Source: Malassezia furfur (Eukaryota). From it: a stretch of DNA of 20,000 bases. Location: the NCBI GenBank assembly GCA_052055015.1, contig JBQJIT010000008.1; one strand, written 5' to 3'. Both the position numbers and the translations under genes were made by a program. Positions 1-18,603 of this stretch are shown here, one piece after another (the stretch's first letter is position 1; each line of letters begins with the position of its first letter). The notes beneath the pieces are model-generated. The model had not been told where the DNA came from. It saw nothing but the letters and a program-made list of their open reading frames with translations, and ran no database searches.

Positions 1-169
1 CGGGACGAGTTGCAGAAGTGCCATCGCGCTGAGGGCGAAAACCACTATTATGTGTGCGCTCCGATCGTCAAGGTATACAACGACCTGCTCAAGGAAGCCA
101 GGGTATGTTCGACTGAGAGAAGGGGCATACTAACCGCAGGTCAAGGGCTACCGCACTGTGGACGTATAG
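1..169 (+). CDS. NDUFB10: NADH:ubiquinone oxidoreductase NDUFB10-like (fungal 12 kDa) subunit, 3' partial
   Basis: Exons <1-102 and 140-169. The 37-nt intron 103-139 (GTATGT...ACTAAC-CGCAG) gives ...RDELQKCHRAEGENHYYVCAPIVKVYNDLLKEAR|VKGYRTVDV*. The C-x2-xEG-x-NH-x3-C pattern is recognised from fungal NDUFB10 homologues. Confidence 0.8.
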
Positions 170-398
170 ACGAGTGTATCGTAGCCGCTTGGATAGACCA
201 ACGAGCCGCGTATACCGCATGCAGCAGAGCGCCGCAGGGCAGGGCAGGGCGCATGTATGATGTGTAGCAGCGTTCCGCACCGCTTTGGTGGACGTGGATG
301 GCGAGCGCAGTGCATCGGTAGGGGCCGTCGTAGGCGTCGGCGGTAGGCGGAGGAGACGTCGGGTCGCGCGCGCGGAGGATATCTACTATACTACAGTC

Positions 399-843
399 TT
401 ACGGTGCGCGCTTCTGCCCGCCGAGCTCCTGCTGCACCTTTTGTAGCTCGAGTTCCTTTTCGCGGTATTGTTTTGCGAGGTCCACGAGCACCTTTGTGAG
501 CTGGGCGTGAGTGGGCGACTGGGTGTGCAACGTACCCCTTCGTAGGTCGTCTCGAGTGTCGGTAACACGTCGCGCACCGTGCGTTCCACGAGCACGCCGC
601 CAATCAGCCGGAAACAGGTGCGGTCCGGCTCCTTTTCTTGGACGCCCGAGAGCGTTTTGATGACGAGCCTGGGTCAGTGTGTGTGCCTGCGTACCTGTGC
701 TCGTCTGCATCGCTCTCAATCTCGCCGATCTTTTCCGCAATCGCCTGCAGCTCTGAGCGGCGCTGCTGCGCGAGCACGGCGAGTTCTGCGCGGTGAGCCA
801 AGGGGCACGTACCCTGCTGCTTCTTGCTAGGCGCGCTGGCCAT
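399..843 (-). CDS. GIM4: Prefoldin subunit 2 (Gim4/Pfd2), 118 aa
   Basis: Exons 843-813, 785-695, 668-536, 500-399 (introns 27, 26, 35 nt). The spliced protein has ELQAIAEKIGEIESDADEHRLVIKTL...DRTCFRLIGGVLVERTVRDVLPTL, the prefoldin-2 signature. Confidence 0.92.
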
Positions 844-965
844 GCTGGGCAACGTGCAGCGGCGACGTACGTAATTCCACGATACATATTTCCCAAACAA
901 CGCGCGTCGTCAGCGCCCTGATCGGGTGCGAGCGTCGCCGGAACCGTGTCGGTGAAGTATTGAGG

Positions 966-3900
966 ATGGCCGCGCCGCTCACGTCTGTGGCGGGTATCAC
1001 GGCCCTTTTGCAAGAAAAGGACCCGAAATTGCAGGCATATGCTCTGCGGAAGCTGGACACGCTCGTGGACGGCTTCTGGGCGGAGCTTGCGGACTCGGTG
1101 CCGAGGATCGAGGAGCTGTACGAGGACGAGTCGTTTGCCGACCGTGCGGTGGCCGCGCTCGTGGCGTCCAAGGTGTACTTCTACCTGGGCGAGTTTGACG
1201 ACTCGCTGAACTTTGCGCTGGGTGCCGGTGCGCTCTTTGACGTGGACCGCCGCGACGAGTATGTGGAAACGGTGGTGTCCAAGGCGATCGACAGCTACAT
1301 TGCCCAGCGCAGCGCGGCACAGGCCGCGGTGGACCCGCGGCTCGAGTCGATTGTGAACAATATGCTGGAGCGGTGCGTGGCCGCGGGCGAGTACCGGCAG
1401 GCGCTCGGTATTGCGCTCGAGACGCGCCGTCTGGACGTGATCGAGAACGTGTTCCGCACGACGCACGACGCACAGCTGCTCATCTATGTGCTCGAGGTGG
1501 TAATGGGTGTGGCGCACGACCACGAGGTGCGCCGGAGTGTGCTGTCGCTGCTTGTGCAGCTGTTCCAGTCGCTGGAGCAACCCGACTACTTCTCGATGGC
1601 GCAGTGCTACGTGTATCTGAACGCGCCGGCGCCCGCGGCCGAGCTGCTGCAGACGCTTGTGCAGCGTGCCGAGGCGGGCGCGGCCGCGCAGGCGAACACG
1701 CCGCAGGACCCGCTGCTGATTGCGTACCAGATTGCGTTCGATCTGGTGGAGAGCGCCACGCAGGAGTTCCGCAAGAGCGTGCAGCAGGAGCTGCAGCACA
1801 AGCTCGGCATCGCGGCGGAGGCGAGCGGCGAGGGCGCCGCGTCGCCCGGTGCGCAGATTCACCTGATCCTGGGCGGCACCGAGTCGATCAAGCTGTACCG
1901 CGCGTTTTTGCAGTACGCCAACCACGCGGACCTCGCGATTCTGCAGGCGTCCAAGAACGCGCTCGACGCGCACTACAGTGCGTACCACTCGGCGGTGAGT
2001 CTGTCGAACGCGTTCATGAACGCGGGCACGTCGAGCGACGAGTTCCTCCGCGAGAACCTCGACTGGCTCGCGAAGGCGTCCAACTGGAGCAAGTTTACGG
2101 CGACCGCCGCGCTCGGTGTGCTGCACAAGGGCAACCTGCAGGAGGGCATGAACATCCTGCGCCCCTACCTGCCGTCGGACGCGCCGTCGAGCAGCGTGTA
2201 CTCTGAGGGCGGCAGCCTGTTTGCGCTCGGCCTGATCCACGCGAACCACGGCGCGGGGATCCTCGACACGCTGATGCATGCGCTGCGCACGCACACCGCC
2301 GAGGTCGTGCAGCACGGCGCGGCGCTCGGCCTCGGCGCGGCGGGCATGGCCACCGAGAACGAGGCGGCGTACGAGGAGCTGCGCAACGTGCTCTTCTCCG
2401 ACTCGGCCGTCGCCGGCGAGGCCGCCGGCTACGCGATGGGCCTCGTGTACCTCGGCACCGGCGCGCCGCACGCCGTCGACGAGATGCTGCAGTACGCGCA
2501 AGAGACGCAGCACGAAAAGATCATCCGCGGCCTCGCGATGGGCCTCGCGCTGCTGCAGTACGGCCGCGAGGCGCAGGCGGACGCGACGATCGAGGTGCTC
2601 ATCACGCACAAGGACGCAACGATGCGCTACGGCGGTGTCTACACGCTCGCGCTCGCGTACGCCGGCACGGGCAGCAACGCGGCGATCAGCCGCCTGCTGC
2701 ACCTCGCCGTGTCCGACGGGAGCGACGACGTGCGCCGCGCCGCGGTCACCGCGCTCGGCTTCCTGCTGTTCCGCACGCCGCACAACCTGCCCGCGATGGT
2801 GCAGCTCCTCAGCGAGAGCTACAACCCGCACGTGCGCTACGGCGCGGCGATGGCGCTCGGCATCGCGTGCGCCGGCACGGGCCTCGACGCGGCGCTCGAC
2901 CTGCTCGAGCCGATGACCAAGGACCCGGTCGACTTCGTGCGCCAGGGCGCGTGCATGGCGCTCGCCATGGTGCTCGTGCAGCAGAACGACACGCTCAACC
3001 CGCGCGTGTCGCACGTGCGCAAGACGCTCGAGCGCATGCTCACCGAGAAGCACGAGGAGGCGATGGCCAAGTTTGGCGCGACGCTCGCGCAGGGCCTGCT
3101 CGACGCGGGCGGGCGCAACGTCACCATCAGCCTGCAGGGCCGCGGGGGCAGCATCAACACGCCCGCGATCGTCGGCATGGCGCTCTTTGCGCAGTACTGG
3201 TACTGGTTCCCCATGGCGCACTTTGCCGCGCTCGCGTTCACGCCGACGGCGATCATCGGCCTCGCACGCACGCTCGAGCTGCCCGACGTGGAGCTCGTGA
3301 GCCGCGCGCGCCCGAGCCTGTTTGCCTACCCGCCGCCGCTCGAGGCGCCCAGCGAGCAGAAGCGCGAGAAGGTCGAGACCGCCGTGCTCTCGACCACGGC
3401 CAAGTCGCAGGCGCGGCAGCGCACCAAGGAGCGCAAAAAGGCCGCGCAGGAGGGCGGCGAGGCCATGGACCAGGACGAGGCCAAGGACAAGCCCGCGGCC
3501 GACGACGCGCCAGACGCCAAGAAGGACGACAAGCCCACCAAGCGCCCCGAGCCCGCACAGGAGCGCATCAAGAACTGCTCGCGCGTCACGCCGTACCAGC
3601 TCAAGTACGTCGCCTTCCCCTCCTCGTCGCGCTTCCAGCCCATCCGCCCGATCCTCGGCAGCCGCGCCGAGGTGTGGCACAACACCGCGGGCGTCGGCGC
3701 TTTGCCGATGCTCACGCCGCCCCCGCCGCGCGACGACGCCGACAAGCCGGCGCCGGCTGCCAACGGCACCGCACGTGGACCGGAGCCGGCCCAGGCGCGG
3801 CAGTTGCACCACTCGGTCACAGGCGGCGGCGGTGGCATCCTGATGCTCCTCGACCGTGAGCCGTCCAAGCCGTTTGCCAAGGTCACCATGCACGGCAACG

Positions 3901-4058
3901 ACGAGTCAAGCACCACGCAGGAGCAGCAAGAGACCGCAGACGCCCTCAAGTCTGCGCCGGATACCGACGAAAAGGCACCGACGGGCGTGCCGGGCGCCGA
4001 GCGCGCCGAGGGCCAGACGGACGACGTCGAGATGCCCGAGGCGCCGGAAGCGAGGTAG
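966..4058 (+). CDS. RPN2: 26S proteasome regulatory subunit Rpn2/PSMD1, about 1030 aa, no intron detected
   Basis: N-terminal LTSVAGITALL...FWAELADS, PC repeats (NWSKFTATAALGVLHKG, LLHLAVSDGSDDVRRAAV, SESYNPHVRYG, DPVDFVRQGA), YWYWFPM and KVETAVLSTTAK motifs. Confidence 0.97.
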   Translation: MAAPLTSVAGITALLQEKDPKLQAYALRKLDTLVDGFWAELADSVPRIEELYEDESFADRAVAALVASKVYFYLGEFDDSLNFALGAGALFDVDRRDEYVETVVSKAIDSYIAQRSAAQAAVDPRLESIVNNMLERCVAAGEYRQALGIALETRRLDVIENVFRTTHDAQLLIYVLEVVMGVAHDHEVRRSVLSLLVQLFQSLEQPDYFSMAQCYVYLNAPAPAAELLQTLVQRAEAGAAAQANTPQDPLLIAYQIAFDLVESATQEFRKSVQQELQHKLGIAAEASGEGAASPGAQIHLILGGTESIKLYRAFLQYANHADLAILQASKNALDAHYSAYHSAVSLSNAFMNAGTSSDEFLRENLDWLAKASNWSKFTATAALGVLHKGNLQEGMNILRPYLPSDAPSSSVYSEGGSLFALGLIHANHGAGILDTLMHALRTHTAEVVQHGAALGLGAAGMATENEAAYEELRNVLFSDSAVAGEAAGYAMGLVYLGTGAPHAVDEMLQYAQETQHEKIIRGLAMGLALLQYGREAQADATIEVLITHKDATMRYGGVYTLALAYAGTGSNAAISRLLHLAVSDGSDDVRRAAVTALGFLLFRTPHNLPAMVQLLSESYNPHVRYGAAMALGIACAGTGLDAALDLLEPMTKDPVDFVRQGACMALAMVLVQQNDTLNPRVSHVRKTLERMLTEKHEEAMAKFGATLAQGLLDAGGRNVTISLQGRGGSINTPAIVGMALFAQYWYWFPMAHFAALAFTPTAIIGLARTLELPDVELVSRARPSLFAYPPPLEAPSEQKREKVETAVLSTTAKSQARQRTKERKKAAQEGGEAMDQDEAKDKPAADDAPDAKKDDKPTKRPEPAQERIKNCSRVTPYQLKYVAFPSSSRFQPIRPILGSRAEVWHNTAGVGALPMLTPPPPRDDADKPAPAANGTARGPEPAQARQLHHSVTGGGGGILMLLDREPSKPFAKVTMHGNDESSTTQEQQETADALKSAPDTDEKAPTGVPGAERAEGQTDDVEMPEAPEAR

Positions 4059-4202
4059 ACACCATAGCTACCCAGATGGACCCAGCGCGCGAACCACCGG
4101 GCGGCTCGGGCCGCCGCCGCCGGCGCGCCACCGGCGCCGCCCGTAGCGCCGTGTCGCCAGCCACTTCCGCACAAGTCGCGCGTGCCTCCTTCTCCCTACG
4201 TC

Positions 4203-5399
4203 CTACTCCGTCTTTTTCGCGGCGTCCATCGCGTCCAGAATCCCCGCAAGGCGTTCCACGGCGTCGTCGCGGATCTGGTAGTGGAACACCAGGCGGGGGC
4301 ACCGGACTGCCATGGGCGGGTCAAGCGCTTCGGCACGCCGCGCAATCTCGTCAGGGTCGTACCCTGCCGCCGCCGCATCAAACCACACCATGTTGGTCTC
4401 GCACGGGACCGTCAGGGGGATGCCACGCCCGGCGAGCATGCGCGCACACCGCCGCGCCAGGTCGTGCGTCCGGCGCAGCTGCGGGAACGTGTCATGCACC
4501 GCAACGTGTGCCGCCGCTGTTAGCACACCGAGCTGCCGCATACCTGCGCCAAACAGCTTGCGGAACTTGCGCGCGCGCTCGATCATCGCCCGTGGACCCA
4601 CAAGGATCGAGCCGATCGGCGCGCCCAGGCCCTTGCTCAGACACAGACTCACCGTGTCGAACGGCGCACAGAGCTCCGCGAGCGGCAGCCCCGTCTCAGC
4701 CGCCGCGTTCCAGAGACGCGCACCGTCGAGGTGCATCGCCAGCCCATGCTCGCGCGCCCACGTACTGATGCGCACAATCTCCTCTTGGGGGAACACGAGG
4801 CCACTCAGCGTATTTTCCAGCGAGATGACCCGCGTGAGCGCATAATGCTGGTCCTCCGCGATGATTGCATGCTCCTGCACGTCCTCGAGCGTGAGGTGGT
4901 GGCCGTTGTGCGGTGCGACCGTCTGCGTCGCTGCGCGCGAGTGGTACGCCATGCCGCCCGTCTCATACTGGTACACATGCGCGCGCTGGTCACACAGGAC
5001 ACTTGCTGGACCACACGCCTGCAAGATGTGCAGGTGCAGCGCGAGCTGGTTCGATAGCGTGCCCGAGGGCATAAACAGCGCAGCCTCCTTCCCGGTGAGC
5101 TGGGCAATCTGTTCCTGGAACAGCGCGGTAGGAGGGTGCACCTGATGCACCTCGTCCGCACATACCGCCTCGGCCATGGCCTTGCGCATTGCCTCGGTCG
5201 GCAGGGTGACTGTGTCGCTGTACAAGTCGTACGCCAGCTTTCCGTAGGCTTCGTCGTTGTCGGCGGCCGTCGGCGTACGCAGCGGCGGAATCAGCGGTTT
5301 CGTCACGTCCGCACCCGCAGGAAGCACCGTTTCACGCACCATGCCACTCACAGCACTCGACACGGTGCGCATGCCTGTTTTGATCGGGTGGTAGACCAT
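4203..5399 (-). CDS. GLY1: Low-specificity L-threonine aldolase family PLP enzyme, about 398 aa
   Basis: SDTVT, FMPSGTLSNQLAL, AHVYQYE, LENT, HLDGARLWNA, and the PLP lysine in CLSKGLGAPIGS. Start is uncertain: in-frame ATGs at 5441, 5399, 5372, 5342. Confidence 0.9.
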   Translation of the reverse strand: MVYHPIKTGMRTVSSAVSGMVRETVLPAGADVTKPLIPPLRTPTAADNDEAYGKLAYDLYSDTVTLPTEAMRKAMAEAVCADEVHQVHPPTALFQEQIAQLTGKEAALFMPSGTLSNQLALHLHILQACGPASVLCDQRAHVYQYETGGMAYHSRAATQTVAPHNGHHLTLEDVQEHAIIAEDQHYALTRVISLENTLSGLVFPQEEIVRISTWAREHGLAMHLDGARLWNAAAETGLPLAELCAPFDTVSLCLSKGLGAPIGSILVGPRAMIERARKFRKLFGAGMRQLGVLTAAAHVAVHDTFPQLRRTHDLARRCARMLAGRGIPLTVPCETNMVWFDAAAAGYDPDEIARRAEALDPPMAVRCPRLVFHYQIRDDAVERLAGILDAMDAAKKTE

Positions 5400-5465
5400 C
5401 GCGGCACGCAGATAAGCTCGACCCCCTCGTTCCCAAATCATGCGCCGTTCGCCCCGCCGGCCCCG

Positions 5466-5520
5466 ATTGGCAGATTGGTCCAAGCGTCAAGGGCGATCGG
5501 GGGGTGCAGGGCGTGATTGG
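5466..5520 (-). promoter_or_regulatory. Three CCAAT boxes (GATTGG on the + strand) in the GLY1/COQ11 divergent spacer
   Basis: ATTGG at 5466-5470, 5474-5478 and 5516-5520, each preceded by G. Confidence 0.45.
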
Positions 5521-5536
5521 TGCTCTCACTGCGACC

Positions 5537-6528
5537 ATGGCCCAACGCTTGTTCGTCGTCGGAGGAAACGGATTTGTCGGTACGTGGCGCCCCCTCACAC
5601 AGGCTCGGCGGTGTGCCGTACGGCACTCGCGCGTGGATGGGAAGTGCAAAGCATCAGGTACGTCCTCCCCGAGTCCGCTGACCACCAGCGGCAGCGGCCG
5701 TCCGTTCCGCACGCCCAAGGGCCACGCCCCGGCATGGACCGAGTCGGACAAGATGCACTGGCACAAGGCCGATGCGCTGCATCCTGACCAGTACAAGGAA
5801 ATTGCTGCGTCGTGCACGGCTGCCGTCCATACCATCGGCATCCTGATGGAGTCCAAGTACAAAGGCCGCAGCGGCTCAGCCACCGGCATCTTCCAGGGCC
5901 TCGCCAAGGGCTGGGGGCTCGGCGACAAGGGCAACCCACTCGACACGCAGGATGCTCTGACCTACGAAAAGATGAACCGCGACTCGGCGATCACGGTCGC
6001 CTCGACGTTTGCCGAGGTTCAGCAGGCAAAGCACAACAACGAGGTGCCATTTGTGTACATGTCGGCGGAGGACATTATGCGTCCGATCATTTCGCCCCGC
6101 TACATCTCGACGAAGCGTGAGGCCGAGGTTGCGATCGCGGCGATCGCCGAGCAAGAATTTCCGCCGATCTTGCGCGCGGTGTTTATGCGTCCAGGTAGGT
6201 GGAGCGGCACTGACACCCAGGGTTGATGTACCACCCACACAACCGTCCGTGGTCCACGGTGCCCGCGACGCTCATCGATGCGTCCAACTATATGCACCGC
6301 CTACACCGCAAGTGGAGGCTGCCCATCCCGTCGCCGGCCGACATTCTTGCGAGCCGTGCGGTGCCGCAGGCGCTGCACCCGCTCTCGGCCGCACTGACCA
6401 CGCCGCCGCTCCATGTCGACACGGTCGCGCACGCGGTGCTCGCAGCGATTGAGTCGGAGCATGTGCGTGGTGCGCAGAACGTCGAGGCGATCCGCCAGCT
6501 CGCCGGTTGGCCCGCCCAAGTTGAGTAG
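5537..6528 (+). CDS. COQ11: Atypical SDR / NAD(P)-binding Rossmann protein, Coq11-like, 303 aa
   Basis: Exons 5537-5579, 5603-5657, 5689-6194, 6221-6528 (introns 23, 31, 26 nt). Splicing gives MAQRLFVVGGNGFVGSAVCRTALARGWEVQSISGSG, plus TYEKMNRDSAI, FVYMSA, RYISTKREAE and RPGLMY, which resemble yeast Coq11/YLR290C. Confidence 0.78.
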
Positions 6529-6633
6529 AATTAGGCAGCTGCACCGCGCCACGCCGCCGGATGGCCCTGGCCCCGGCTCCGGCCCTGACGCCCTCCACAT
6601 GGCCCGTCCACCGTGCGCCCCACGCTGCGCGAA

Positions 6634-6640
6634 TCACGTG
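6634..6640. promoter_or_regulatory. TCACGTG E-box upstream of SAC1
   Basis: ATCACGTG in the COQ11-SAC1 gap, about 55 bp before the ATG. Confidence 0.4.
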
Positions 6641-6693
6641 GACGCAACGCCGGTGTGGTGATTGCACGCAGCGGGCCCCAGCTGCCGACGACC

Positions 6694-8720
6694 ATGTCGC
6701 TCTGGGCTGGATTCACTTGGTACGTCTCCGTGTGCCGAACTAACGCAGCTATGTATCCAAAGGTACGCTGGTCGCCCCCGGAAAGCTCACCGCACAGATA
6801 CGTATACGTTCGTGCCCACGAACCGCGGCGACCCACCGCGCCCGCTGCAGAAGCTGGTGATCGATCGCAGGGAGAGCGTCCTGTCGCTCCAAGGTGGGTG
6901 GTGTACATACTTACACACCAGACACGGACTCTCTGGATGTGCCCAAATATGACAAGCAGTTTATTGTGCACGGGATCCTCGGGATTCTGTCGCTGCACAC
7001 CACCGACTTTATGGTGGTGGTGACGAACCGCAAAAAAGTCGCGCATATCCTTGGCGCCAACGTCTACCTTGCGACCGACTTCCGCATGCTGCCGCTTAAG
7101 ACGGAGGCGAACCCGACGCTGCTGCGGAACCCGATCGAGAAGCGCCTGCTGGGTCTGGTGAAGGAGTCGCTCTACTCGGGCCCGCTGTACTTTTCGTACG
7201 AGTACGACGTGACGAGCTGTCTGCAGCGCCAGACCAAGAGTGAGTTCGGTCCGGACGGTGCCAAGCTGCCCATGTGGAAGCGTGCGGACGAGCGTTTCTT
7301 CTGGAACTACCATCTGCAGGAGCCGCTCATGCGGCATGCACAGGACCTGAGTGCGTTCATCATGCCCGTCATGTTTGGTTTTCTGGAGGTGAAGGTCGCG
7401 CAGATCCATCAGCGTGCGTTTGTGCTGGGCCTGATCGCGCGCCGCTCGCGCTACCGCGCCGGAACACGCTATTTCTCCCGCGGGATTGACGCCGAGGGCC
7501 ACGTGAGCAACTACAACGAAACCGAGCAGTTCGTGCTGGTCGATCCGCCGAGCGGCGGCACGCCGACGAGCATGGAGGAGATCGAGGGCAAGGCACGCAT
7601 GAGCTACGTGCAGACGCGCGGCTCGGTTCCCGTGTTCTGGGCCGAGGTGAACAATTTGCGCTACAAGCCGGACCTGCTCATCCCCGCAGACCCCCGCACG
7701 GTGGCGAGTGCGCGCCGACACCTCGATGAGCAGGTGGCGCTGTATGGCAAAAACTACCTGGTGAACCTGGTGAACCAGAGCGGGTACGAAAAACCGGTCA
7801 AGGACGCGTACGAGCAGGTCGTGCAAGAGGTGAGCAACCCGCTGGTGCAGTACAACTACTTCGACTTCCACCATGCGTGCAAGGGCATGAAGTTTGACAA
7901 TGTGCAGCTGCTTATCAACCAGCTTGAGCGCGAGGGCCTGCGCCCCAATGACTACTTTATGCTCGATACGAACGGCGCGCCGCAGGTGCAGCTGCAAAAG
8001 TCGGTCGTGCGCACCAACTGCATGGACTGTCTCGACCGTACCAATGTGGTGCAGAGCATGCTCGCGCGCCTCGTGCTCAATGAGCAGCTGCGCTCCGTCG
8101 AGATCCTCGGCGCGGGCGACCGCGTGGAGGACCATCCCGCGTTCCTGTATCTCTTCCGCAACGTCTGGGCGGACCATGCGGACGTGATCAGCAAGGCCTA
8201 CTCGGGCACCGGCGCGCTCAAGACCGACTTTACGCGCACCGGCAAACGCTCCATGGAGGGTGCGCTACAGGACGGGCTCAACTCGCTCACGCGCTACGTC
8301 AAGAACAACTTCTTTGATGGCGCGCGCCAGGACGCCTACGACCTGTTTACCGGCGCGTGGGACCCTGCGACGCAGAAGCCAGAAGTGGTCGTGCAGCCGT
8401 GGACGGTGCGCATGATGCCGTGGCTGCTGTGGGTGTCGCTCCTGTTTGTGGTCCTGTCGTTCCTGCTGGAGGGGGACCCTGCGCGGCCATACAAGGTGCC
8501 GACGCACGCGCCTCTCTTCCCCGCGTTCTGGGCGACCGTCGCGCTGGTGTCGCTCTACTACATCTGGCAGCACGGCGTGCTGTACGTCGGGTGGCCCTCG
8601 CTCAACCGCCCCACGGCGCTTATCGACTACGACGGCCCCGGATACCGCTCGGGCCTGCGCGGCCGCAAGGGCACGCGCATCGACCCGCGCCGCCTGCTCG
8701 CCGCGCGCAAGACGCAGTAG
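6694..8720 (+). CDS. SAC1: Phosphatidylinositol-phosphate phosphatase Sac1, 644 aa
   Basis: Exons 6694-6719, 6749-6762, 6798-6893, 6922-8720 (introns 29, 35, 28 nt). Catalytic RTNCMDCLDRTN, RAGTRYFSRG, QTRGSVP and YSGTGALKTDFTRTGKR motifs, plus two C-terminal hydrophobic segments. Confidence 0.95.
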
Positions 8721-8747
8721 GCCTCCGCCGTAGCCCGATCGATCTAT

Positions 8748-8756
8748 TCACGTGAC
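8748..8756. promoter_or_regulatory. TCACGTGAC E-box upstream of PRP19
   Basis: Lies in the 66-bp SAC1-PRP19 gap, 30 bp before the ATG. The same core occurs in three other intergenic spacers. Confidence 0.45.
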
Positions 8757-8786
8757 CCGACGCATCGCGGCGTCGGCCCACCCACC

Positions 8787-10425
8787 ATGTTCTGTGCAAG
8801 TGCGTCGCGCATGCTGACCCAGTCTCTGGCGAGGCGCCGAAAGAGCCGGTCGTCTCCAAGAAGAGCGGGCTTCTGTTTGAGAAGCGTCTGATTGAGCGGT
8901 ACATCGACGAGCACGGCAAGGACCCGATCACGGGCGAGGAGCTGAGCGTCGACGACCTGCTGCCGGTCAAGTCGTGTACGTCGCGCCGCCCCACTCACCC
9001 AGCGCAGCACACGGCCTTCCCGCGCCCGCCGTCGCACACTTCTGTGCCGTCGCTGCTGACTGCGCTGCAGAACGAATACGACGCGATGGTCTTTGAGACG
9101 CTCGCGCTCAAGAAGCAGTACGACAGCGTCCGCCAGGATTTGGCGCATGCGCTCTACACCAACGACGCAAGCACGCGCGTGATCGCGCGGCTGCTCAAGG
9201 AGCGCAACGAGGCGCGCGAGTACGTACCCAAGGCTCACCCAGCGCGCTCGCCAACGTGCACGCCTCGCTCGGCACCGCGTCGGCGACCGACGACGTCGAC
9301 ATGGCGCCCGCCGAGGCCGCGACCGACGCGGCGCTCCCCGCCGACCTGCTCACGGCGATCGACGAGACGGCCTCGGCGCTCTCGAGCGAGCGCCGCGCGC
9401 GCATCAAGCGCGGCGCACCCGAGGGGTATACGACGCCGGCGTCGGCCGCCTCGTTGCAGCAGGTCGCGTCGATGACGTCGGTGCACGGTGCCTCTGCACC
9501 GGGCGTGACTGCCCTCGATGTCAGCGCCAATGGCCAGCTCGTACTGACCGGCGGCAAGGACAAGGCGGTGCTCGTGCTCGACCGCGCCTCGCAAAAGGTG
9601 CTGTCCACGTTCAAGGGCCACACCAAGCCAATCCACGCCGTGGCGTTCGCCGCGCGTGCGAATCCGCCGGTGGGCGCCGCCGCCGCGGAGCTGCCGCCGC
9701 CGCCGTACGCGGTGAGCGCGAGCGCCGACAAGACGCTGCGTGTATACGCGGCCAAGGACAACAACACCTACGGCCTCGCCCACACCCTCAAGGGCTATGC
9801 CGATGAGGTGACCGGCGCCGACATCCACCCCACCGACCTGCTCGTCGGCAGTGCGAGCCGCGACGGATCGTGGGCGCTGCACGCGCTCACGTCGGGTGAG
9901 CGCGTGCTGCACGTTGGTGCGCCCGACGCGGACGACGATGGGGGCTACGAGTATGAGTCCTTTGCCTTCCACCCCGACGGGCAGCTTGCCGCCACGGGCA
10001 CGGCCGGCGGCGCGATCCGCGTGTGGGACGTGAAGCAGGGCAAGCAGAGCGCCGTGTTCCGCGGGCATGACGGTGCGGTGCACTCGCTGAGCTTCTCGCC
10101 GAACGGCTACCTGCTTGCCGCTGCGTCGCGCGGCGCGTCCGTCGTCAAGGTGTGGGACCTGCGCAAGCTCGAGGTGGCCCGCACGGTGGAGCTGCCGGAC
10201 AACTACACGGTCGCGCAGGTGCGCTTTGACCCGACCGCGCAGCTGCTCGCGGTCGTGGGTGACGACGTGCGCGTGTTTGGGGGCAAGGCGCTCCAGCTCG
10301 TGTACACCTTTGCCGAAAACCACGCGCAGGAGACCAGCGCGCAGTGGTCGCCCGTCGACGGCGCCCTGCTCACCGCGGGGCTCGACCGGACCGTGCGCAT
10401 GCTCGGCGCAGGCGCAGACGCATAG
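8787..10425 (+). CDS. PRP19: Pre-mRNA splicing factor Prp19 (U-box, coiled coil, WD40), 521 aa
   Basis: Exons 8787-8799, 8823-8975, 9003-9219, 9243-10425 (introns 23, 27, 23 nt). Splicing gives [32 protein letters not shown]...DPITGE, SVPSLLTALQNEYDA, RQDLAHALYTNDASTRVIARL and WD repeats. Confidence 0.96.
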
Positions 10426-10460
10426 CGGACGTAGCGCGACCTACGTGTCCTTCGCTCTAT

Positions 10461-12788: not shown

Positions 12789-12835
12789 CGACGTGCACAC
12801 CGGAGTGACTAGGCGCACGTGACTCGACTCCGACC
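12789..12835. promoter_or_regulatory. 47-bp divergent TRP1/ARP9 spacer with E-box and Gcn4/CpcA-like sites
   Basis: Lies between two opposed ATGs. Contains TGACTA (12806-12811), CACGTGAC (12816-12823) and TGACTC (12820-12825). Confidence 0.55.
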
Positions 12836-14294
12836 ATGACGCGCGAGGCCAGCACGCTGCTGATCGTGCATGACGCCCAGCGCGTGTTTGCGGGCGTTGG
12901 CATCCAGGACCCGTTCGCGGTGCCCGACGTGGTACGTGGTGCGCACTCACCCAGGTCATCCCCGCCCGCGTGGGCCGCCGCGCCGACCACACCTACCTCG
13001 TTGGCTCCGCACTGACCGACGCCGAAACCCGCGGCGAGGAGCTCACGATCCGCTACCCGATCGAGAACGGGCGCGTGGAGGACTGGGACGCGCTCAAGGC
13101 GCTATGGTACGTCCGCCGCACCCCTCACACAGGAACCACGTCCTCGAGGAGCTCAAGGTGCACCCCGCACACAACACCTTCTTTACGATGATTGGCCTCC
13201 CCATGCCGCTGCCGCGCGAGGCCGCCGAGCGCACGGCCCAGATCTTTTTCGAGCAGTTCAACACGCCGGCACTGTCGATCAGTGAGGTGCCGCTGCTCAC
13301 TGCGTACGCGGCCGGCGTCCTCAACGCGCTCGTCGTCGACATCGGCGCCGAAGAGACCAGCGCCGTGGCCATCAGCGACTGTGCGGTGCTGCCCACCACC
13401 GCGGTGCTCAGCAAGCTCGGCTCGGTGCACTGCACCTGGTGGCTCGCCTACCTGCTCACGCAGGACGCCGCCGTGACGCGCGCGCTCGAGCCGCTCGTCA
13501 CGCAGGAGCTCAGCATGAGTGCGCTCGCCTATGCGCTGGCCCAGGTGCTGGTCGCCGAGGGCAACGTGCGCATCGACGTCTCGTCCAACGTGCAGGGCCT
13601 TAACGAGCCGGACGCGGACGACGCGACGTTCGACGTCGCCGCCGCGCTCGTCGAGGGCCGCGAGCACGACGTGGTCAGCCAGCGCAAGCGCGCGGCGCAA
13701 CAAGAAAAGGCGGACGACACGATCCACGTAGCGTTCCGTGGCGTCCAGGTCCCGATCGGGCGCGTGCGTGCGCGCTTCCACGAGCCGCTGCTGCACCCGC
13801 AGCTTCTGGAGCGCGTGCGCCTCGACGTGCCGGCGCCGCCCGCGGTGCAGCAGGCGCTGCATGCACGTCAGATCGGCGGCGAGCCGATCTGTGTGTCGGT
13901 GCCCGACACGATCATCATGGCCGCTCGGCAGGTGCAGCCGCTCGAGCGGCGCGTGCCGCTCTGGGAAAACGTGGTGATGACCGGCAGCATGACGCAGTTC
14001 AAGGGCCTCGTTCCGGAGCTGCTCCAGGCTCTCACGGCGTTCATGATCAACGAGCAGACCGAAACTGCGCAGGTGGTCGGCGAGCCGAACCCGCAGCAGC
14101 CGCGCAGCGCGCGGGCGCTGCGCGTGCCCGAGTACTTCCCGGCGTTCAAGGATCGCCTCGATCTGCTGCCGTACCTCGGCGCCAACATCTATGCGAAACT
14201 CGTGTTCAACGACATGTCGGGCCGTAACTATATCTCCAAGATGCAGTACAACGACGGTGGCCCCTCGGTAGCGTTTGCGATCGGCAGTGGATAG
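12836..14294 (+). CDS. ARP9: Nuclear actin-related protein, probably Arp9 (SWI/SNF-RSC), 469 aa
   Basis: Exons 12836-12931, 12955-13106, 13133-14294 (introns 23, 26 nt). Actin-fold motifs RYPIENGRVEDWDALKALW, QIFFEQFNTP, ALVVDIG, LWENVVMTG. VPEYFPAFK and YISKMQYNDGGP are recalled from Arp9-type proteins. The subfamily call is less certain than the actin fold. Confidence 0.72.
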
Positions 14295-14358
14295 TATGCG
14301 AGGATTCGTGACAGGGATGTGCGAGGCACCTGGACCCAGCGTGCAGCTACCTAGGTCC

Positions 14359-16006
14359 CTATGCGTTTTCTACGAGCGCGGCCACGCCCGTGGCGAGCTT
14401 CTCGGTGTCCTCCGTGGACGCCGCTTCGGCATACACACGCACGCAGTCCTCGGTGCCGCTCGGGCGAACAAACGAGCGGCCCTGCGGGAACTGCGCAACA
14501 AGCGCGTCAATCTTGGCCTGCAGGCCCGCAGGCGACGTCAGCTTGCGCTCCGCGTCTGTGGTCTGGAACACGGTGCGGTCGGGCACCTGCACCTTGAGCA
14601 GCTTGTTGGGCAGGTCCGTGTAAGCCGCGTTCCACTGCTCGGGACCCCAGCGGCGTGCTGCCAGGATCGCGAGCACCATGAGCATGTCGGAGATCGCGTC
14701 GCCCACCGTCTGGTTGATGAGCTCGGCGAGGTTCTTGAGACGCATCAGCGCGTCCTTCGCCTCGTCGCTCGCGGGCTGCGCGCTCTCCATGGCGGCGCGT
14801 GCCTCGGGCGAAAAGAGCACCGTGCCGTGGCCGTTCGCCTCAAAGTACACACCGATCGCGTACTTGGCCGCCTCGTGGTGCAGGTGCTTGACGCCCGTCG
14901 GCGTGCACGATACGGGCACACGCTGCTCAAGGTAGGCCGTCGAGGCACCGTTCGCGTACGCCGTCTGCACGCATCCGAGCTTGATGTCCAGCTGCGCCTT
15001 GGCGACTAGCTCCGAGAGGTAGTCGGCCGCAAGGCTCGCGATCTTGTCGCCGTCCAGCAGGTGGAAGCTGGCGGCATCGGACGCGGGGCCCGTGAGATAG
15101 TAAAAGACGATGCGGTCCGCGTCGCCGTCAAACGAGCACATCAGCTCGTTCGGACGCACGCGCTCTTCGTCGGCGTAGCCGTCAGGCAACCGCTGCTGCG
15201 TCTTGACAAAGTCGGCGCCGCACCCGTTGTTGAGACGCCCCTGCGTCTCGGTATCGGTGCGCAGCAAAACGAGCGGCAGGCGCGACTCGGGGATGTGCTT
15301 TGTGAGGCCCTGCAGGGCCCGTGCACCCACACCATTGGCGCAGTCGACCACGAGCGGCGGCGGCGCCGGCAGGCCTTCGGTCGCTGCGAGGAACGCGGCG
15401 GCGAGCTTTTCGTAGTAGCCCGTCTCGGTGGGCGTGCCGTAGGCGTCCTTGGTGTTGGCCGTGTTGTGGGCCAGCACGAGGTAGTGCAGCTGCGGGGTGG
15501 TCAGCAGGCCGCCCTCGATCATTTCGGCATTCAGCGCCTGCAGCCCATCGACAATCGCGCCGACCAGCGACGGCGACGAGGGGCGCGTGTCCCAGCCGTA
15601 CACCACGCGCGGGCGCACGTCCAGCGAAATGTGGAAGCGCTGCACAATCGCGTCGAGCGCCGCTAGCAGCTCGTCCGGCGTGCGTGCATTGGCGACGTCG
15701 GTGCACACCGGCTCCCACGCGGCCTCTAGCATCTCGCCGTGGGGATCGACCATCTTCACGCCGTTGTCCGGCTCGGGGTTGTGCGACGCGGTGACCATCA
15801 AACCGACGACCTGGCCGCCGAGCGCCATGCTGCGCAGCGCGCCGATGAGCCCAATACGGAAGCAGGTGCTGTCAAGCAGCGTGGCTCTGCGTGAGTGCGT
15901 TGACATACTTGGTGCGGAAGCCCGCGGTGCCATACACGAGGCGCGCCTCGGGCTTGTGGTGCGCCGCCGAGGCTTGCACAATGACCGACTGGCGGTGCGA
16001 ATCCAT
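14359..16006 (-). CDS. PCM1: Phosphoacetylglucosamine mutase (Agm1/Pcm1/PGM3), 541 aa
   Basis: Exons 16006-15909 and 15886-14359. The 22-nt intron restores YGTAGFRTK-ATLLD. Motifs TASHNP (phosphoserine), DGDADR (metal), YFEANGHG, RSFVRPSGTED. Confidence 0.96.
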
Positions 16007-16050
16007 GACGGGAGAAGAAACACCCCGCCCCGCTTCCGACACCTCCACCT
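16007..16050. promoter_or_regulatory. 44-bp divergent PCM1/MPDU1 spacer
   Basis: Lies between opposed ATGs at 16006 (-) and 16051 (+). Contains a CCCCGCCCC GC-box-like run. Confidence 0.5.
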
Positions 16051-17010
16051 ATGCCGTCCGCGCTGCAGAACATCACGCGGTCGCTGCCGTGGTTCGTGTT
16101 GGACCCGGCGCGGTACCTGCTCGGCGAGGTACGCAGCACACTGCACTCACGCAGCAATGCTTTACGTCGCTTGTGTGGGACGTGAACTGGACCGACGTGC
16201 CGTGCCTCCGCCTCGGGCTCAGCAAGGGCCTGGGTCTCGGCATCGTCGTGTTTGGCAGCATCATCAAGTTTCCCCAGATTTACAAGATCGTGCATGCGCG
16301 CAGCGCGACGGGCATTAGTTTGGCCATGTACATCCTCGAGGTCGTTGCATACACCATCAGCCTCGCGTACGCTATCCGGCTGCATATCCCGTTCAGCACG
16401 TATGGCGAGAATGCGAGCTTGACGCTGCAGAGTACGTTGCTGCGCTCACGCAGACATGATCATCACGCTCCTCATCATTGCCTACTCCCCCATGGACACG
16501 TACTCGCGGCGCGTGACGACCTTTTGCCGCGCGCGCGGCATCACGACCAACACGCTGTACGTGAGCGTCGCAGCGGTCACCATGGTGTTGTGCTCGCTCG
16601 CGCTCGCGTTTGAGACCGCTGTGCCGCCCGCGATGCTCAAGACGCTTCAGTTGTTCACCATCCCTGTGTCGTTGGCATCCAAGGTGCCGCAGATGCTCGA
16701 GCTGCACCGCGACAAGGCCACGGGGCAGCTCAGTGTACTGGTCGTCTTTGCACAGCTGCTCGGCACCCTCGCCCGCGTCTTCACAACGCTCACCGAGACC
16801 AACGACCGCCTGCTGTTCTGGGGCTTTGCGCTCGCCACTGTGTTCAACGCGGTGATTGCCGTGCAGGTGCTGCTCTACTGGAACGGCAACGAGAAGCGCG
16901 CGGCGCTCCACGAGGGCCGCTGGTACGAATCCGTGCCGGTCGGGCGGCGCAACGTGAGCGAGCTGCCGACGACCATTAGTCCTGCACGCGGGCTTCCCAA
17001 GCGCGACTAG
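16051..17010 (+). CDS. MPDU1: Mannose-P-dolichol utilization defect 1 (MPDU1/Lec35) homologue, PQ-loop membrane protein, 303 aa
   Basis: Exons 16051-16128, 16155-16431, 16454-17010 (introns 26, 22 nt). Motifs SKGLGLGIVVFGSIIKFPQI, PFSTYGE, SKVPQ...TGQLS, GTLARVFTT. Confidence 0.9.
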
Positions 17011-17018
17011 TTTCTACA

Positions 17019-18603
17019 TTACAGGTGGACCGCCGCAGCCCGTGTTCGGCTCGGCAGGAAGAGCGCCGTGCAGGCACATAGCGCAAACAGCACCACACTC
17101 GTCAGTACCGCAAGCTCCACGCGCACCTGGAGCAGTGCCCCGGCGAGCATCGGCGCCACGATCCCGGTGATGCGGCCGAGCGCGCTCGCCACGGCACACG
17201 CCGTGCCCCGGATCGATGTCGGGAAGACGTCCGGAGTGAAGCCGTACAGGATCGCATACGCCGTAGTGGCCGATAGCGACACCCCCATGCCGGCCACTAC
17301 CACGGCCGTCGCGCTCGTCGACGCAAGGAACACGAGCTGTGCAGCGCTCGTCACGAGCAGCGCGAGCGCCAAGGACTTTGCACGGCCGAGCTGCGACTCG
17401 ACGAGCGCCGTACCCAGCAGGCTGCCGGGCACACTGCTCACGGCGTACCACAGGTAGTCGTACAGCGCATGTACCTCGTTCACATCGTCTGCCTGCTGCC
17501 CGAGCTTGCGCTGCAAGAACAGAGGGTAAAAGGCGTTAAACATCGTGAACGCAAGCGACATAAGCGCCCACAGCGTCCAGGTCAGCAGCACCGGCCGCCG
17601 GTTCGGCGCCTCGAACAGCGGCTCGCTTCGCTCTGCCAGCTCCGTGACGCGCTCGGCCAGTGCACCGGGCAAGAAACTAAACGACGACGGCGATGGATCG
17701 AGTGAGTCGCCGCGCCTATCCGACGCACGGTCGTCGCCCAGCATTGCCGTACGCTCCGGGTCGTCGCTGCCGCGCGACGTGCTGGGTGCGGCGTCCATAT
17801 CGCGCACATCGTCCAAGTTGAGCGTGCTGTCCTCGCCGTTCGCTGTACTGATCTGCTCGAGCGTCGAGCGCGCATCGTCGAGCTGGTCGGTCGCGACGAG
17901 GAAGGTCGGACTTTCGTGGACGCTCCATGGGCACATGCGCGCAACCGCAAAGACGCCCGTCTGTGTGAGTGGTGCGCACGTACGAGAAGCGCAAGGATCC
18001 GGATCAGGTGCCGCCATCCCGTGTTGGTGTCGGCGTCGGTGCACGGCGCCGTGCGCGTACAGCTGTGCCCCGGCAAGACGACCAGGGCCACCGACGCACA
18101 GACCACCGAGCCCAGCGAGAAGAAGACCGACAGCGCTGTGAGCCAAAAATGCTTCGACTGCGGGATGGACTCGAGGAAGAGCGTGCCGTCGATCGGCATG
18201 CTGCCTCCCACGCCCGTGCCCACGCCAAAGCTCATCACACACACGAGGCCAAACGTCGGTGCGAAGCTCAGCGCGGCGCCCAGCACCGCGGTCACCACGA
18301 GCGTGCGCAGAAACACGTACAGCCGACCATACAAGTCTGCACACGAGCCCCACACGATGCTGCCCAGCGTCATGCCTGCAAACAGCGCCGACGTCGCGAG
18401 GCCGATGGTGCGATCGGCGATCGACCACTCGTACTGGATGCGCGGAAGCGCGATGGCGATCCCCTGGATCCACATCTGGGGTCAGGTCATGCACGTACGT
18501 TGTCTGCTGCCCATCCCATCCCACTGAGGACGAGCAGACGCCACTGGTACACGCCCATGCCTAGCCGCGCCAGGGTCGCCTGGAGCGAGCGCGGGGGGCG
18601 CAT
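17019..18603 (-). CDS. Major facilitator superfamily transporter, SV2/SVOP-like, 512 aa
   Basis: Exons 18603-18499, 18475-17984, 17960-17019 (two 23-nt introns). GMGVYQWRL..SGMGWAADN|MW, WGSCADLYGR (MFS motif A), GVGGSMPIDGTLFLE, ESP, and YGFTPDVFPTSIRGTA. Substrate unknown. Confidence 0.88.

What the first reader, a model, noticed from the sequence alone, without database searches (positions are those of the whole stretch)
103..18498. Ultra-short spliceosomal introns: 20 introns of 22-37 nt, eight of them 22-23 nt
Seen: GT-AG introns whose removal restores conserved protein motifs and, for the 18 non-3n cases, the reading frame. 22 nt: 15887-15908, 16432-16453. 23 nt: 5580-5602, 8800-8822, 9220-9242, 12932-12954, 17961-17983, 18476-18498. 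26 nt: 669-694, 6195-6220, 13107-13132, 16129-16154. 27 nt: 786-812, 8976-9002. 28 nt: 6894-6921. 29 nt: 6720-6748. 31 nt: 5658-5688. 35 nt: 501-535, 6763-6797. 37 nt: 103-139. Median is 26 nt. In the shortest, the putative branch A is only nucleotide 17-18. Known: introns this small are typical of ciliates, microsporidia and nucleomorphs, and most fungal introns are considerably longer. Malassezia is known for short introns, so the novelty may be one of degree. Inference: the spliceosome must handle a lariat too small for conventional simultaneous U1 and U2/SF3b occupancy, and default gene predictors will mis-annotate these genes.
Basis: partly seen in the sequence, partly recalled or inferred. 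Interest (0 to 1): 0.8.

Follow-up and report, generated by a model that had tools for sequence, protein, structure and literature searches.

The report
Tiny real introns in Malassezia furfur
Twenty very small (22-37 base) interruptions in nine genes of the skin yeast Malassezia furfur are genuine introns; the genus is already known for this, but such introns still mislead automatic gene prediction.

Summary
All 20 intervals are GT...AG on the strand of their host gene, with the stated lengths: median 26, minimum 22, and 18 of 20 not a multiple of 3. Removing them gives nine clean reading frames.

Every junction has comparative support:
- 10 junctions are crossed without a gap by an intron-less orthologue in a syntenic relative, L002.
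- 4 have an intron at the same position but of another length in L002.
- 6 are crossed without a gap by protein homologues.

The signals are strong and nearly contiguous: 5' GTAYGY in 17/20, branch CTNAC in 20/20, CAG in 20/20, and branch A 5-8 nt from the intron end.

The window is Malassezia furfur. Very short introns are already published for this genus. M. sympodialis has 5350 curated introns with a mean of 30 bp, 99% backed by RNA-seq. M. restricta has a median of 30 bp, and its annotators set the minimum intron length to 15-20. So this is already known in kind. What is added is a pile-up at a 22-23 nt floor, and public gene models that miss these introns.

RNA reads could not be examined. 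The U1/U2 crowding idea is untested.

The parts
103..139 (+). 37-nt intron, phase 0, in partial gene A (NDUFB10-like C-terminus)
   Evidence: GTATGT...TACTAAC...CAG. Homologues P0065, P0076 and P0081 read A[KR]VKG[YF] straight across the junction. P0066 and P0068 read through a 30-nt in-frame insert at the same site.
501..535 (-). 35-nt intron in prefoldin gene B
   Evidence: No gap at codons 85/86 in 14 prefoldin homologues.
669..694 (-). 26-nt intron in prefoldin gene B
   Evidence: No gap at codon 41 in 14 homologues.
786..812 (-). 27-nt (3n) intron in prefoldin gene B
   Evidence: 13 of 14 homologues show no insertion at codon 11. If retained it would add 9 residues without a stop.
5580..5602 (+). 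23-nt intron in gene E
   Evidence: The intron-less L002 orthologue reads GGNGFVGSAVC identically across the junction.
5658..5688 (+). 31-nt intron in gene E
   Evidence: L002 is contiguous: SISGSGRPFRTP.
6195..6220 (+). 26-nt intron in gene E
   Evidence: L002 is contiguous: VFMRPGLMYHPHNRPWST.
6720..6748 (+). 29-nt intron in SAC1 gene F
   Evidence: Same-position 36-nt intron in L002 (16013-16048), with both upstream exons 26 nt. The N-terminal motif is conserved in SAC1 homologues.
6763..6797 (+). 35-nt intron in SAC1 gene F, following a 14-nt micro-exon (6749-6762)
   Evidence: Same-position 31-nt intron in L002, which also has a 14-nt micro-exon. YVSKDxY is contiguous in homologues.
6894..6921 (+). 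28-nt intron in SAC1 gene F (branch CTTAC)
   Evidence: Same-position 29-nt intron in L002. The junction lies in a variable protein stretch, so protein support is weaker. Removal is needed for the frame.
8800..8822 (+). 23-nt intron after the 13-nt first exon of PRP19 gene G
   Evidence: Same-position 27-nt intron in L002 (13830-13856), which also has a 13-nt first exon.
8976..9002 (+). 27-nt (3n) intron in PRP19 gene G
   Evidence: L002 and L001 are contiguous: LPVKSS..TAFPRPP.
9220..9242 (+). 23-nt intron in PRP19 gene G
   Evidence: L002 and L001 are contiguous: KER.EAR.AL.
12932..12954 (+). 23-nt intron in actin-related gene I
   Evidence: L002 and L001 are contiguous across residues 32/33.
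13107..13132 (+). 26-nt intron in actin-related gene I
   Evidence: L002 and L001 are contiguous: ALW.HVL. Pfam Actin profile positions run on from exon 2 to exon 3.
15887..15908 (-). 22-nt intron in phosphoacetylglucosamine mutase gene J
   Evidence: L002 is contiguous: YGTAGFR..A.L.
16129..16154 (+). 26-nt intron in PQ-loop gene K
   Evidence: L002 is contiguous across residues 26/27.
16432..16453 (+). 22-nt intron in PQ-loop gene K
   Evidence: L002 is contiguous: ENASLT.QNM.ITLLIIA.
17961..17983 (-). 23-nt intron in MFS transporter gene L
   Evidence: P0006, P0007, P0009, P0011, P0012, P0014, P0022 and P0024 run without a gap across the junction, through a segment that the public M. furfur model P0001 skips as a 143-nt intron.
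18476..18498 (-). 23-nt intron in MFS transporter gene L
   Evidence: P0022 and P0023 read AD[NT]MW[IM]Q across the junction. The public model P0001 uses a 35-nt intron and loses MWIQ.
399..843 (-). Host gene B, prefoldin beta-type subunit, 118 aa
   Evidence: Pfam Prefoldin_2; spliced frame.
5537..6530 (+). Host gene E, conserved 303-aa protein
   Evidence: No Pfam hit at E<=0.01. 67% identical to the L002 orthologue.
6694..8720 (+). Host gene F, SAC1 phosphoinositide phosphatase, 644 aa
   Evidence: Pfam Syja_N; named homologues.
8787..10427 (+). Host gene G, PRP19 (U-box, Prp19 domain, WD40), 521 aa
   Evidence: Pfam.
12836..14294 (+). Host gene I, actin-related protein, 469 aa
   Evidence: Pfam Actin.
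14359..16006 (-). Host gene J, phosphoacetylglucosamine mutase, 541 aa
   Evidence: Pfam AMG1_II/III and PGM_PMM.
16051..17010 (+). Host gene K, protein with two PQ-loop repeats, 303 aa
   Evidence: Pfam PQ-loop, two matches.
17019..18603 (-). Host gene L, MFS transporter, 512 aa in the homology-supported model
   Evidence: Pfam MFS_1.

Best explanation
These are ordinary U2-type (GT-AG) spliceosomal introns of Malassezia furfur nuclear genes, shrunk almost to the sum of their three signals. Each consists of a 6-nt 5' splice site (mostly GTACGT), a spacer of only 5-19 nt, a branch box ending in CTNAC, and a CAG acceptor. The acceptor is the first AG, 5-8 nt past the branch A. The signals are strong and the introns are as GC-rich as the exons. 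The most likely mechanism (inferred) is recognition across the intron (intron definition) by U1 at the 5' site and U2 at the branch, with the acceptor chosen by proximity because there is no room for a polypyrimidine tract. Eight of the 20 introns sit at 22-23 nt, with a spacer of 5-6 nt. This looks like a mechanical lower limit against which deletions have pushed the introns. Shown here: sequence signals, frame restoration, and colinearity with intron-less or same-position-intron orthologues. Inferred: actual excision, lariat formation at the CTNAC adenosine, the order of snRNP binding, and the floor being mechanical.
For: GT-AG on the gene strand in 20/20. 5'SS GTAYGY 17/20, branch CTNAC 20/20 (CTCAC 12, CTGAC 5, CTAAC 2, CTTAC 1), CAG 20/20, acceptor is the first AG after the branch 20/20, branch A to intron end 5 nt in 12/20 and 6-8 nt in 8/20, spacer 5-19 nt, intron GC 0.50-0.74. 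Motif enrichment: 18 observed against 0.44 expected. Nine spliced frames are clean, and retaining any of the 18 non-3n introns shifts the frame. Ten junctions are crossed gap-free by the intron-less orthologue in syntenic locus L002; four of them are also crossed in L001. Four junctions carry same-position introns of other lengths in L002: 27 against 23, 36 against 29, 31 against 35, 29 against 28. The flanking exons keep lengths of 13/13, 26/26, 14/14 and 96/93 nt. Six junctions are supported by protein homologues. The public M. furfur prefoldin model P0030 uses the same three introns. Genus context: M. sympodialis has 5350 curated introns, mean 30 bp, 99% RNA-seq supported (Table 2 passage). 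M. restricta has a median of 30 bp.
Against: For 6894-6921 the protein junction lies in a variable, gapped region, so its support is the frame plus a same-position intron in L002 only. L001 and L002 are close to each other and are not independent witnesses. The public M. furfur model P0001 draws both MFS introns differently, at 35 and 143 nt, and I could not see what evidence it rests on. The floor at 22-23 nt rests on 20 introns from one 20-kb window.
Confidence: 0.93

Rival explanations
1. The introns are real, but some listed boundaries are wrong. For example, the MFS gene might really use the longer introns of the public model (35 nt at 18464-18498 and 143 nt at 17961-18103), or both forms might be made by alternative splicing.
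For: The public M. furfur protein P0001 is 100% identical to the window in its three exons and implies these longer introns, which also have GT...CAG ends. P0003 from another strain skips the same segment.
Against: The longer introns delete MWIQ and 40 residues that P0006, P0007, P0009, P0011, P0012, P0014, P0022 and P0024 carry without a gap across the junction (P0023 carries the segment but has a gap just after it); P0022 and P0023 read ADNMWIQ/ADTMWMQ across the first junction. The 35-nt version skips the first AG after the branch, unlike all 20 short introns. The 143-nt version would be far outside the 22-37 nt range seen here.
Confidence: 0.06
2. The frame breaks are sequencing or assembly errors, or the genes are pseudogenes, and the GT-AG ends are coincidence.
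For: The GC-rich sequence keeps wrong frames open for long stretches (for example a 1164-aa ORF antisense to RPN2), so frames alone are weak evidence.
Against: Errors would not produce 22-37 nt inserts that all carry GTAYGY, CTNAC and CAG on the coding strand (18 observed against 0.44 expected). They would not coincide with introns of other lengths at the same positions in an independent relative. They would not include two 3n inserts.
Confidence: 0.01
3. The introns are genuine, but their small size needs a changed spliceosome. U1 and U2/SF3b could not occupy a 16-nt 5'SS-to-branch span together, so binding would be sequential or components would be lost or altered.
For: In the 22-23 nt introns only 5-6 nt separate the 5'SS hexamer from the 7-nt branch box, and only 5 nt separate the branch A from the intron end. 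For nucleomorph introns of 18-21 bp, authors argue that such lengths strain the conventional model (passages).
Against: Nothing tested here. The signals are fully conventional and strong, unlike nucleomorph introns (no discernible branch motif) or Paramecium introns (weak signals). This argues for a conventional machine working at its limit. A full-length PRP19 with U-box, Prp19 and WD40 domains is encoded in the window itself.
Confidence: 0.3
4. The introns are genuine but spliced inefficiently, so a sizeable share of transcripts retains them, as reported for microsporidia.
For: A 2026 paper cites a median splicing efficiency of about 25% for the extremely short introns of microsporidia (passage). 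Retention would often go unpunished for long stretches: the next stop lies 3 to 133 codons downstream in 16 of the 18 non-3n introns and is absent before the transcript end in 2, and the two 3n introns have no stop at all.
Against: In M. sympodialis, 99% of 5350 curated introns have RNA-seq support. Nucleomorph introns of 18-21 bp are spliced at high levels. The strong consensus signals seen here argue for efficient recognition.
Confidence: 0.15

Closest known systems
Introns of other Malassezia species (M. sympodialis ATCC 42132 curated annotation, PMC5389616; M. restricta KCTC 27527, PMC6473144 and PMC9241646)
   Same: Same genus, compact genome, and GT-AG introns of about 30 bp. M. sympodialis has a mean of 30 bp over 5350 introns, 99% with RNA-seq support. 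M. restricta has a median of 30 and an average of 37.2 bp over 2150 introns, and its annotators set the minimum intron length to 20 and 15. A review states that Malassezia genes contain 'very short introns'.
   Different: The window's introns are somewhat shorter (median 26, mean 26.75, 8 of 20 at 22-23 nt) and denser (20 introns in about 13 genes) than the published figures of about 0.5-1.2 introns per gene. No length statistics for M. furfur were found in the papers read. The M. sympodialis length distribution (Fig. S8) is a picture and could not be read.
Syntenic relative in metagenome locus L002 (and L001), presumably another Malassezia-like yeast
   Same: Same gene order for E, F, G, H, I, J, K and M. 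Its introns are also tiny (27, 29, 31, 36, 36 nt) with the same signals. Four positions are shared with the window.
   Different: Within the aligned parts it lacks 10 of the window's 14 introns in the shared genes. It has one PRP19 intron (L002 13696-13731) that the window lacks. It is 55% GC against 66%. It lacks the MFS gene L.
Tiny introns of Paramecium and other ciliates
   Same: Length class: Paramecium tetraurelia averages 25 nt and is recognised by intron definition (passage).
   Different: Paramecium introns have weak splicing signals, and GC content contributes to their recognition (title and passage). The introns here have strong 5'SS and branch motifs and are as GC-rich as the exons.
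Bigelowiella natans nucleomorph introns (18-21 bp)
   Same: GT-AG introns near the conceivable lower size limit, spliced accurately.
   Different: Nucleomorph introns show no discernible branch adenosine motif, are AU-rich, have a very narrow length range, and are proposed to be measured by a 'caliper'. Here the branch box is present in 20/20, lengths span 22-37 nt, and there is no AT bias.
Microsporidian, dicyemid and myxozoan introns shorter than 30 bp
   Same: Listed as the notable exceptions to the rule that introns shorter than about 30 bp are absent.
   Different: These organisms are parasites with reduced genomes. Microsporidian short introns are reported as poorly spliced. Malassezia is a culturable, genetically tractable yeast and is not mentioned in that list.

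Membership tests
U2-type GT-AG spliceosomal intron | GT at the 5' end and AG at the 3' end on the coding strand | tested here: met
   20 of 20
U2-type GT-AG spliceosomal intron | Extended 5' splice-site consensus (GTRNGT-like) | tested here: met
   GTACGT 12, GTACGC 3, GTATGT 2, GTAGGT 1, GTGGGT 1, GTGCGT 1
U2-type GT-AG spliceosomal intron | Branch-site motif (CTNAY) with an adenosine shortly upstream of the acceptor | tested here: met
   CTNAC in 20 of 20, with the A 5-8 nt from the intron end. The motif is present, but use of this A as the branch was not shown.
U2-type GT-AG spliceosomal intron | Removal restores one reading frame colinear with orthologous proteins | tested here: met
   Nine clean frames. 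Junctions are crossed gap-free. 6894-6921 lies in a variable region and has weaker protein support.
U2-type GT-AG spliceosomal intron | Presence/absence, or same-position introns of different non-3n length, in related genomes | tested here: met
   10 absent and 4 same-position in L002
U2-type GT-AG spliceosomal intron | Excision from RNA with lariat formation | not testable with these tools
Malassezia genus-wide short-intron trait | Host genome is Malassezia | tested here: met
   MFS exons are 100% identical to a protein named for M. furfur CBS14141. The nearest homologues of the prefoldin and SAC1 genes are named Malassezia spp..
Malassezia genus-wide short-intron trait | Typical intron length near 30 bp | tested here: met
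   Median 26, mean 26.75 here, against a published mean of 30 and median of 30
Signal-poor AT-rich 'caliper' introns (chlorarachniophyte nucleomorph type) | No discernible branch motif, AU bias, very narrow length range | tested here: not met
   Branch box in 20/20, GC 0.50-0.74, range 22-37 nt, against the description
U12-type (minor spliceosome) intron | Highly conserved /ATATCCTT or /GTATCCTT 5' site and TCCTTAAC branch (motifs recalled, from no call) | tested here: not met
   None of the 20 5' sites or branch boxes has these motifs

The most novel reading that the evidence does not exclude
Genome-wide, M. furfur introns might be piled up against a hard floor of 22-23 nt: a 6-nt 5' site, a 5-6 nt spacer, a 7-nt branch box and 4-5 nt to CAG. 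They would carry full-strength conventional signals and show no AT bias. That would be the shortest intron set of any free-living, culturable and transformable fungus, and a different solution from the signal-poor tiny introns of ciliates and nucleomorphs. It would make M. furfur a practical model for asking how close the 5' splice site and branch can be for a conventional spliceosome. It would also imply that a sizeable share of public M. furfur gene models are wrong at such introns.
Probability: 0.35. Interest if true: 0.5.

Novelty: already known. Interest (0 to 1): 0.25.

Why it matters
For biology it is mainly a reminder. Malassezia belongs on the short list of organisms with introns shorter than 30 nt, yet a 2026 survey of such exceptions does not name it. 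In the paper library, none of the 15 listed of the 18 papers holding at least two of the six search terms holds the word Malassezia beside an 'ultra-short', 'tiny', 'shortest' or 'extremely short introns' term.

Unlike ciliate or nucleomorph introns, these keep strong 5', branch and acceptor signals in a GC-rich context. They therefore show how far a conventional three-signal intron can be compressed: a 5-6 nt spacer, and 5 nt from the branch A to the intron end.

The practical point concerns annotation. In a GC-rich genome, wrong frames stay open for hundreds of codons, and public models miss or mis-draw several of these introns. Annotation of this skin commensal and opportunist therefore needs a minimum intron length of 15-20 and RNA evidence.

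Tried and rejected
- **RNA evidence:** No whole genome is held, so no genome-wide histogram or snRNA/snRNP inventory was possible.
- **Earlier scan notes:** the word search returned only unrelated giant-virus intron notes, and there were no notes for this genome. None was used.
- **Nested shorter introns:** alternative GT sites at 6730-6748 (19 nt), 12939-12954 (16 nt) and 17961-17979 (19 nt) appear in the motif scan. I rejected them because they would break the frames that the orthologues support.
- **Other motif hits:** the longer hit at 501-577 (-) overlaps coding sequence of exon 3 of the prefoldin gene and was rejected. The hits at 13272-13307 (-) lie antisense inside gene I and were treated as chance.
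- **More introns in the other genes:** the loose motif scan found none in RPN2, the beta-eliminating lyase gene, the TRP gene or eIF3h. These have unbroken frames with full-length Pfam matches. The scan is not exhaustive, since it missed 6894-6921, whose branch is CTTAC.
- **Depletion of 3n introns:** 2 of 20, binomial P(at most 2) = 0.018. This is suggestive only, with n = 20 from one window.
- **RNA genes:** Rfam and tRNA scans of the window found nothing.
- **First Pfam call:** one search failed on a mis-set coordinate and was corrected.
- **M. furfur intron statistics in print:** not found in the passages read or in the searches.


Full report
**What the window is.** The 20-kb window is 62-70% GC and densely packed with eukaryotic housekeeping genes. 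The largest exon of the MFS transporter gene is 100% identical to a protein that its source names 'CBS14141_002122 [Malassezia furfur]'. All three exons of that public model map to the window at 100% identity. The nearest named homologues of the prefoldin and SAC1 genes are also Malassezia species. The window is therefore nuclear DNA of M. furfur.

I modelled these genes:
- A: partial, NDUFB10-like with only sub-threshold Pfam hits, 1-169 +
- B: prefoldin, 399-843 -
- RPN2: 966-4058 +
- a beta-eliminating lyase family gene: about 4204-5399 -
- E: conserved protein without a Pfam hit, 5537-6530 +
- F: SAC1, 6694-8720 +
- G: PRP19, 8787-10427 +
- the trifunctional GATase-IGPS-PRAI tryptophan gene: 10461-12788 -
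- I: actin-related protein, 12836-14294 +
- J: phosphoacetylglucosamine mutase, 14359-16006 -
- K: PQ-loop protein, 16051-17010 +
- L: MFS transporter, 17019-18603 -
- eIF3h: 18658-19833 +
- a partial gene at the right end

**Check of the observation.** Every one of the 20 intervals begins GT and ends AG on the strand of its host gene. The lengths are exactly those listed, and 18 of 20 are not multiples of three. The median is 26, the mean 26.75 and the minimum 22.

The pattern is far beyond chance. A strict three-signal motif of at most 40 nt occurs 18 times, against 0.44 on average (maximum 3) in 300 Markov-1 simulations. A looser motif gives 24 hits against 4.96 +/- 2.5.

With the introns removed, all nine host genes read as single frames ending in a stop. 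Retaining any of the 18 non-3n introns shifts the frame.

**Comparative evidence, junction by junction.** A scan of metagenome contigs with the intron-less tryptophan gene returned 19 loci. Two of them (L001, L002; 61-62% identical) come from a relative with the same gene order for E, F, G, H, I, J, K and eIF3h.

In L002 the orthologues of E, I, J and K are uninterrupted, and tblastn alignments run gap-free across all eight of the window's junctions in them. The same holds for PRP19 junctions 2 and 3. L001 repeats this for PRP19 junctions 2-3 and both Arp junctions. That makes 10 junctions validated by an intron-less orthologue.

Four more junctions carry an intron at the same position in L002, but with another length and an unalignable interior:
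- PRP19 intron 1: 27 nt against 23 nt, after a 13-nt first exon in both.
- SAC1 introns 1-3: 36, 31 and 29 nt against 29, 35 and 28 nt. The flanking exons are 26/26, 14/14 and 93/96 nt.

Indels that ignore the triplet rule inside the intervals, with exon lengths conserved around them, are the classical signature of introns.

The remaining six junctions were checked against protein homologues:
- The three prefoldin junctions show no gap in an alignment with 14 homologues from Malassezia to Coprinopsis. One homologue, P0043, has an insertion at junction 1.
- The NDUFB10-like junction is read straight through as A[KR]VKG[YF] by P0065, P0076 and P0081. P0066 and P0068 carry a 10-residue in-frame insert beginning VC... 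and ending ...Q at exactly that site, which is a read-through intron.
- Both MFS junctions are crossed without a gap by distant homologues.
- The SAC1 N-terminus (MSLWAGFTCYVSKDTYTF...) matches 18 SAC1 homologues across junctions 1 and 2. Junction 3 (6894-6921) falls in a variable stretch, so it rests on the frame and the L002 intron.

**Anatomy.**
- 5' site: GTACGT 12, GTACGC 3, GTATGT 2, others 3.
- Branch box: CTNAC in 20 of 20 (CTCAC 12, CTGAC 5, CTAAC 2, CTTAC 1).
- Acceptor: CAG in 20 of 20, and always the first AG after the branch.
- Branch A to intron end: 5 nt in 12 introns and 6-8 nt in 8.
- Spacer between the 5' hexamer and the 7-nt branch box: 5-19 nt.
- Intron GC: 0.50-0.74, about that of the exons.

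The shortest introns are thus 6 + 5 + 7 + 4 = 22 nt. Eight of 20 lie within one nucleotide of that minimum, which looks like a floor.

The introns are 5'-biased: 14 of the 19 in complete genes lie in the first third of the coding sequence. Two micro-exons exist, a 13-nt first exon in PRP19 and a 14-nt second exon in SAC1. Both are conserved in L002.

**How it most likely works.** These are conventional U2-type introns recognised across the intron. This reading is inferred from the signals. No polypyrimidine tract can fit between the branch and the acceptor, so the acceptor is probably taken as the first AG downstream.

It could not be tested, because no genome, snRNA or RNA data were reachable. 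The strength and conventionality of the signals speak for an ordinary spliceosome working at its spatial limit. They contrast with nucleomorph introns of 18-21 bp that show no discernible branch motif, and with Paramecium introns that have weak signals. This remains an argument, not a result.

**Comparison with what is known.**
- The curated M. sympodialis annotation has 5350 introns with a mean size of 30 bp, 99% supported by RNA-seq (Table 2 passage of PMC5389616).
- M. restricta has 2150 introns, average 37.2 and median 30 bp (Table 1 passage of PMC9241646). Its annotators ran BRAKER with 'minimum intron length = 20' and AUGUSTUS with 'min_intron_len = 15' (passage of PMC6473144).
- A review says Malassezia genes contain 'very short introns'.
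- Older automatic annotations gave inflated averages: 65 bp for M. sympodialis and 76-79 bp for M. globosa.

The phenomenon is therefore published for the genus, and the public M. furfur prefoldin model already uses the three introns listed here. What I did not find in print is a length distribution for M. furfur or any treatment of Malassezia in the tiny-intron literature. A 2026 paper names ciliates, microsporidia and dicyemids as the exceptions below 30 bp. In the search that combined 'Malassezia' with five phrases for tiny introns, 18 papers hold at least two of the six terms. The 15 listed have no occurrence of Malassezia. Only passages, not whole texts, of these papers were read.

**Mis-annotation.**
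- The public M. furfur MFS model (P0001, 468 aa) draws a 35-nt intron in place of the 23-nt one, losing MWIQ. It draws a 143-nt intron in place of the other 23-nt one, losing 40 conserved residues.
- P0003, from another strain, starts at MWIQ and skips the same segment.
- SAC1 predictions P0103, P0104 and P0105 lack or garble the three small N-terminal exons.
- P0064, P0066 and P0068 read into the NDUFB10-like intron.

The cause is visible. At this GC content, wrong frames stay open for hundreds of codons. Examples are 12870-14294, 14359-16146 and 17019-18524, which run through introns, so a predictor is not forced to splice.

**Verdict.** The kind of thing is already known for the genus. The increment is a slightly shorter distribution with a possible 22-23 nt floor, plus concrete annotation errors. 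Interest is low to moderate.

Noticed in passing
window 17010-17019; 10427-10461; 12788-12836; 16006-16051; 18603-18658: Extreme gene packing. The stop codons of the convergent genes K and L are 8 bp apart, and those of PRP19 and the TRP gene 33 bp apart. The start codons of divergent pairs are 47 bp (TRP/Arp), 44 bp (J/K) and 54 bp (MFS/eIF3h) apart. 3' ends must therefore overlap, and promoters must be tiny or shared (coordinates).
   Followed up: partly
window 17019-18603; L002 5408-5694: The MFS transporter gene L has no counterpart in the syntenic relative. In L002 the orthologues of K and eIF3h are only about 286 bp apart. This is a gene gain or loss between lineages.
   Followed up: no
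L002 13696-13731 (minus strand); window about 8900: The relative has a 36-nt PRP19 intron (GTACGT...CTGAC...CAG) where the window has none. Conversely, the window has 10 introns that L002 lacks in the aligned parts of E, G, I, J and K. The direction (gain or loss) is undetermined.
   Followed up: partly
window 6749-6762 and 8787-8799: A 14-nt internal micro-exon in SAC1 and a 13-nt first coding exon in PRP19. Both have the same length in L002.
   Followed up: yes
window 17961-18103 and 18464-18498: The public M. furfur model of the MFS gene (P0001) implies introns of 143 and 35 nt that remove residues conserved in distant homologues. The 23-nt introns fit better. Similar N-terminal or read-through errors occur in relatives' SAC1 and NDUFB10-like predictions.
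   Followed up: yes
window 399-3893 (-), 6531-8177 (-), 10344-12539 (+): Very long spurious ORFs antisense to real genes: 1164, 548 and 731 codons by the ORF lister with ATG/GTG/TTG starts. They are a by-product of 66% GC, so ORF length alone is no guide to genes here.
   Followed up: no
window 13272-13307 (-): An intron-like motif (GTACGC...CTCAC...CAG, 36 nt, with a nested 29-nt form) lies antisense inside the coding sequence of gene I. It was treated as a chance match.
   Followed up: no
window, all 20 introns: Only 2 of 20 introns are multiples of three (binomial P = 0.018), and neither contains an in-frame stop. This is a possible depletion of 3n introns, as described for other tiny-intron genomes, but the sample is too small.
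   Followed up: partly
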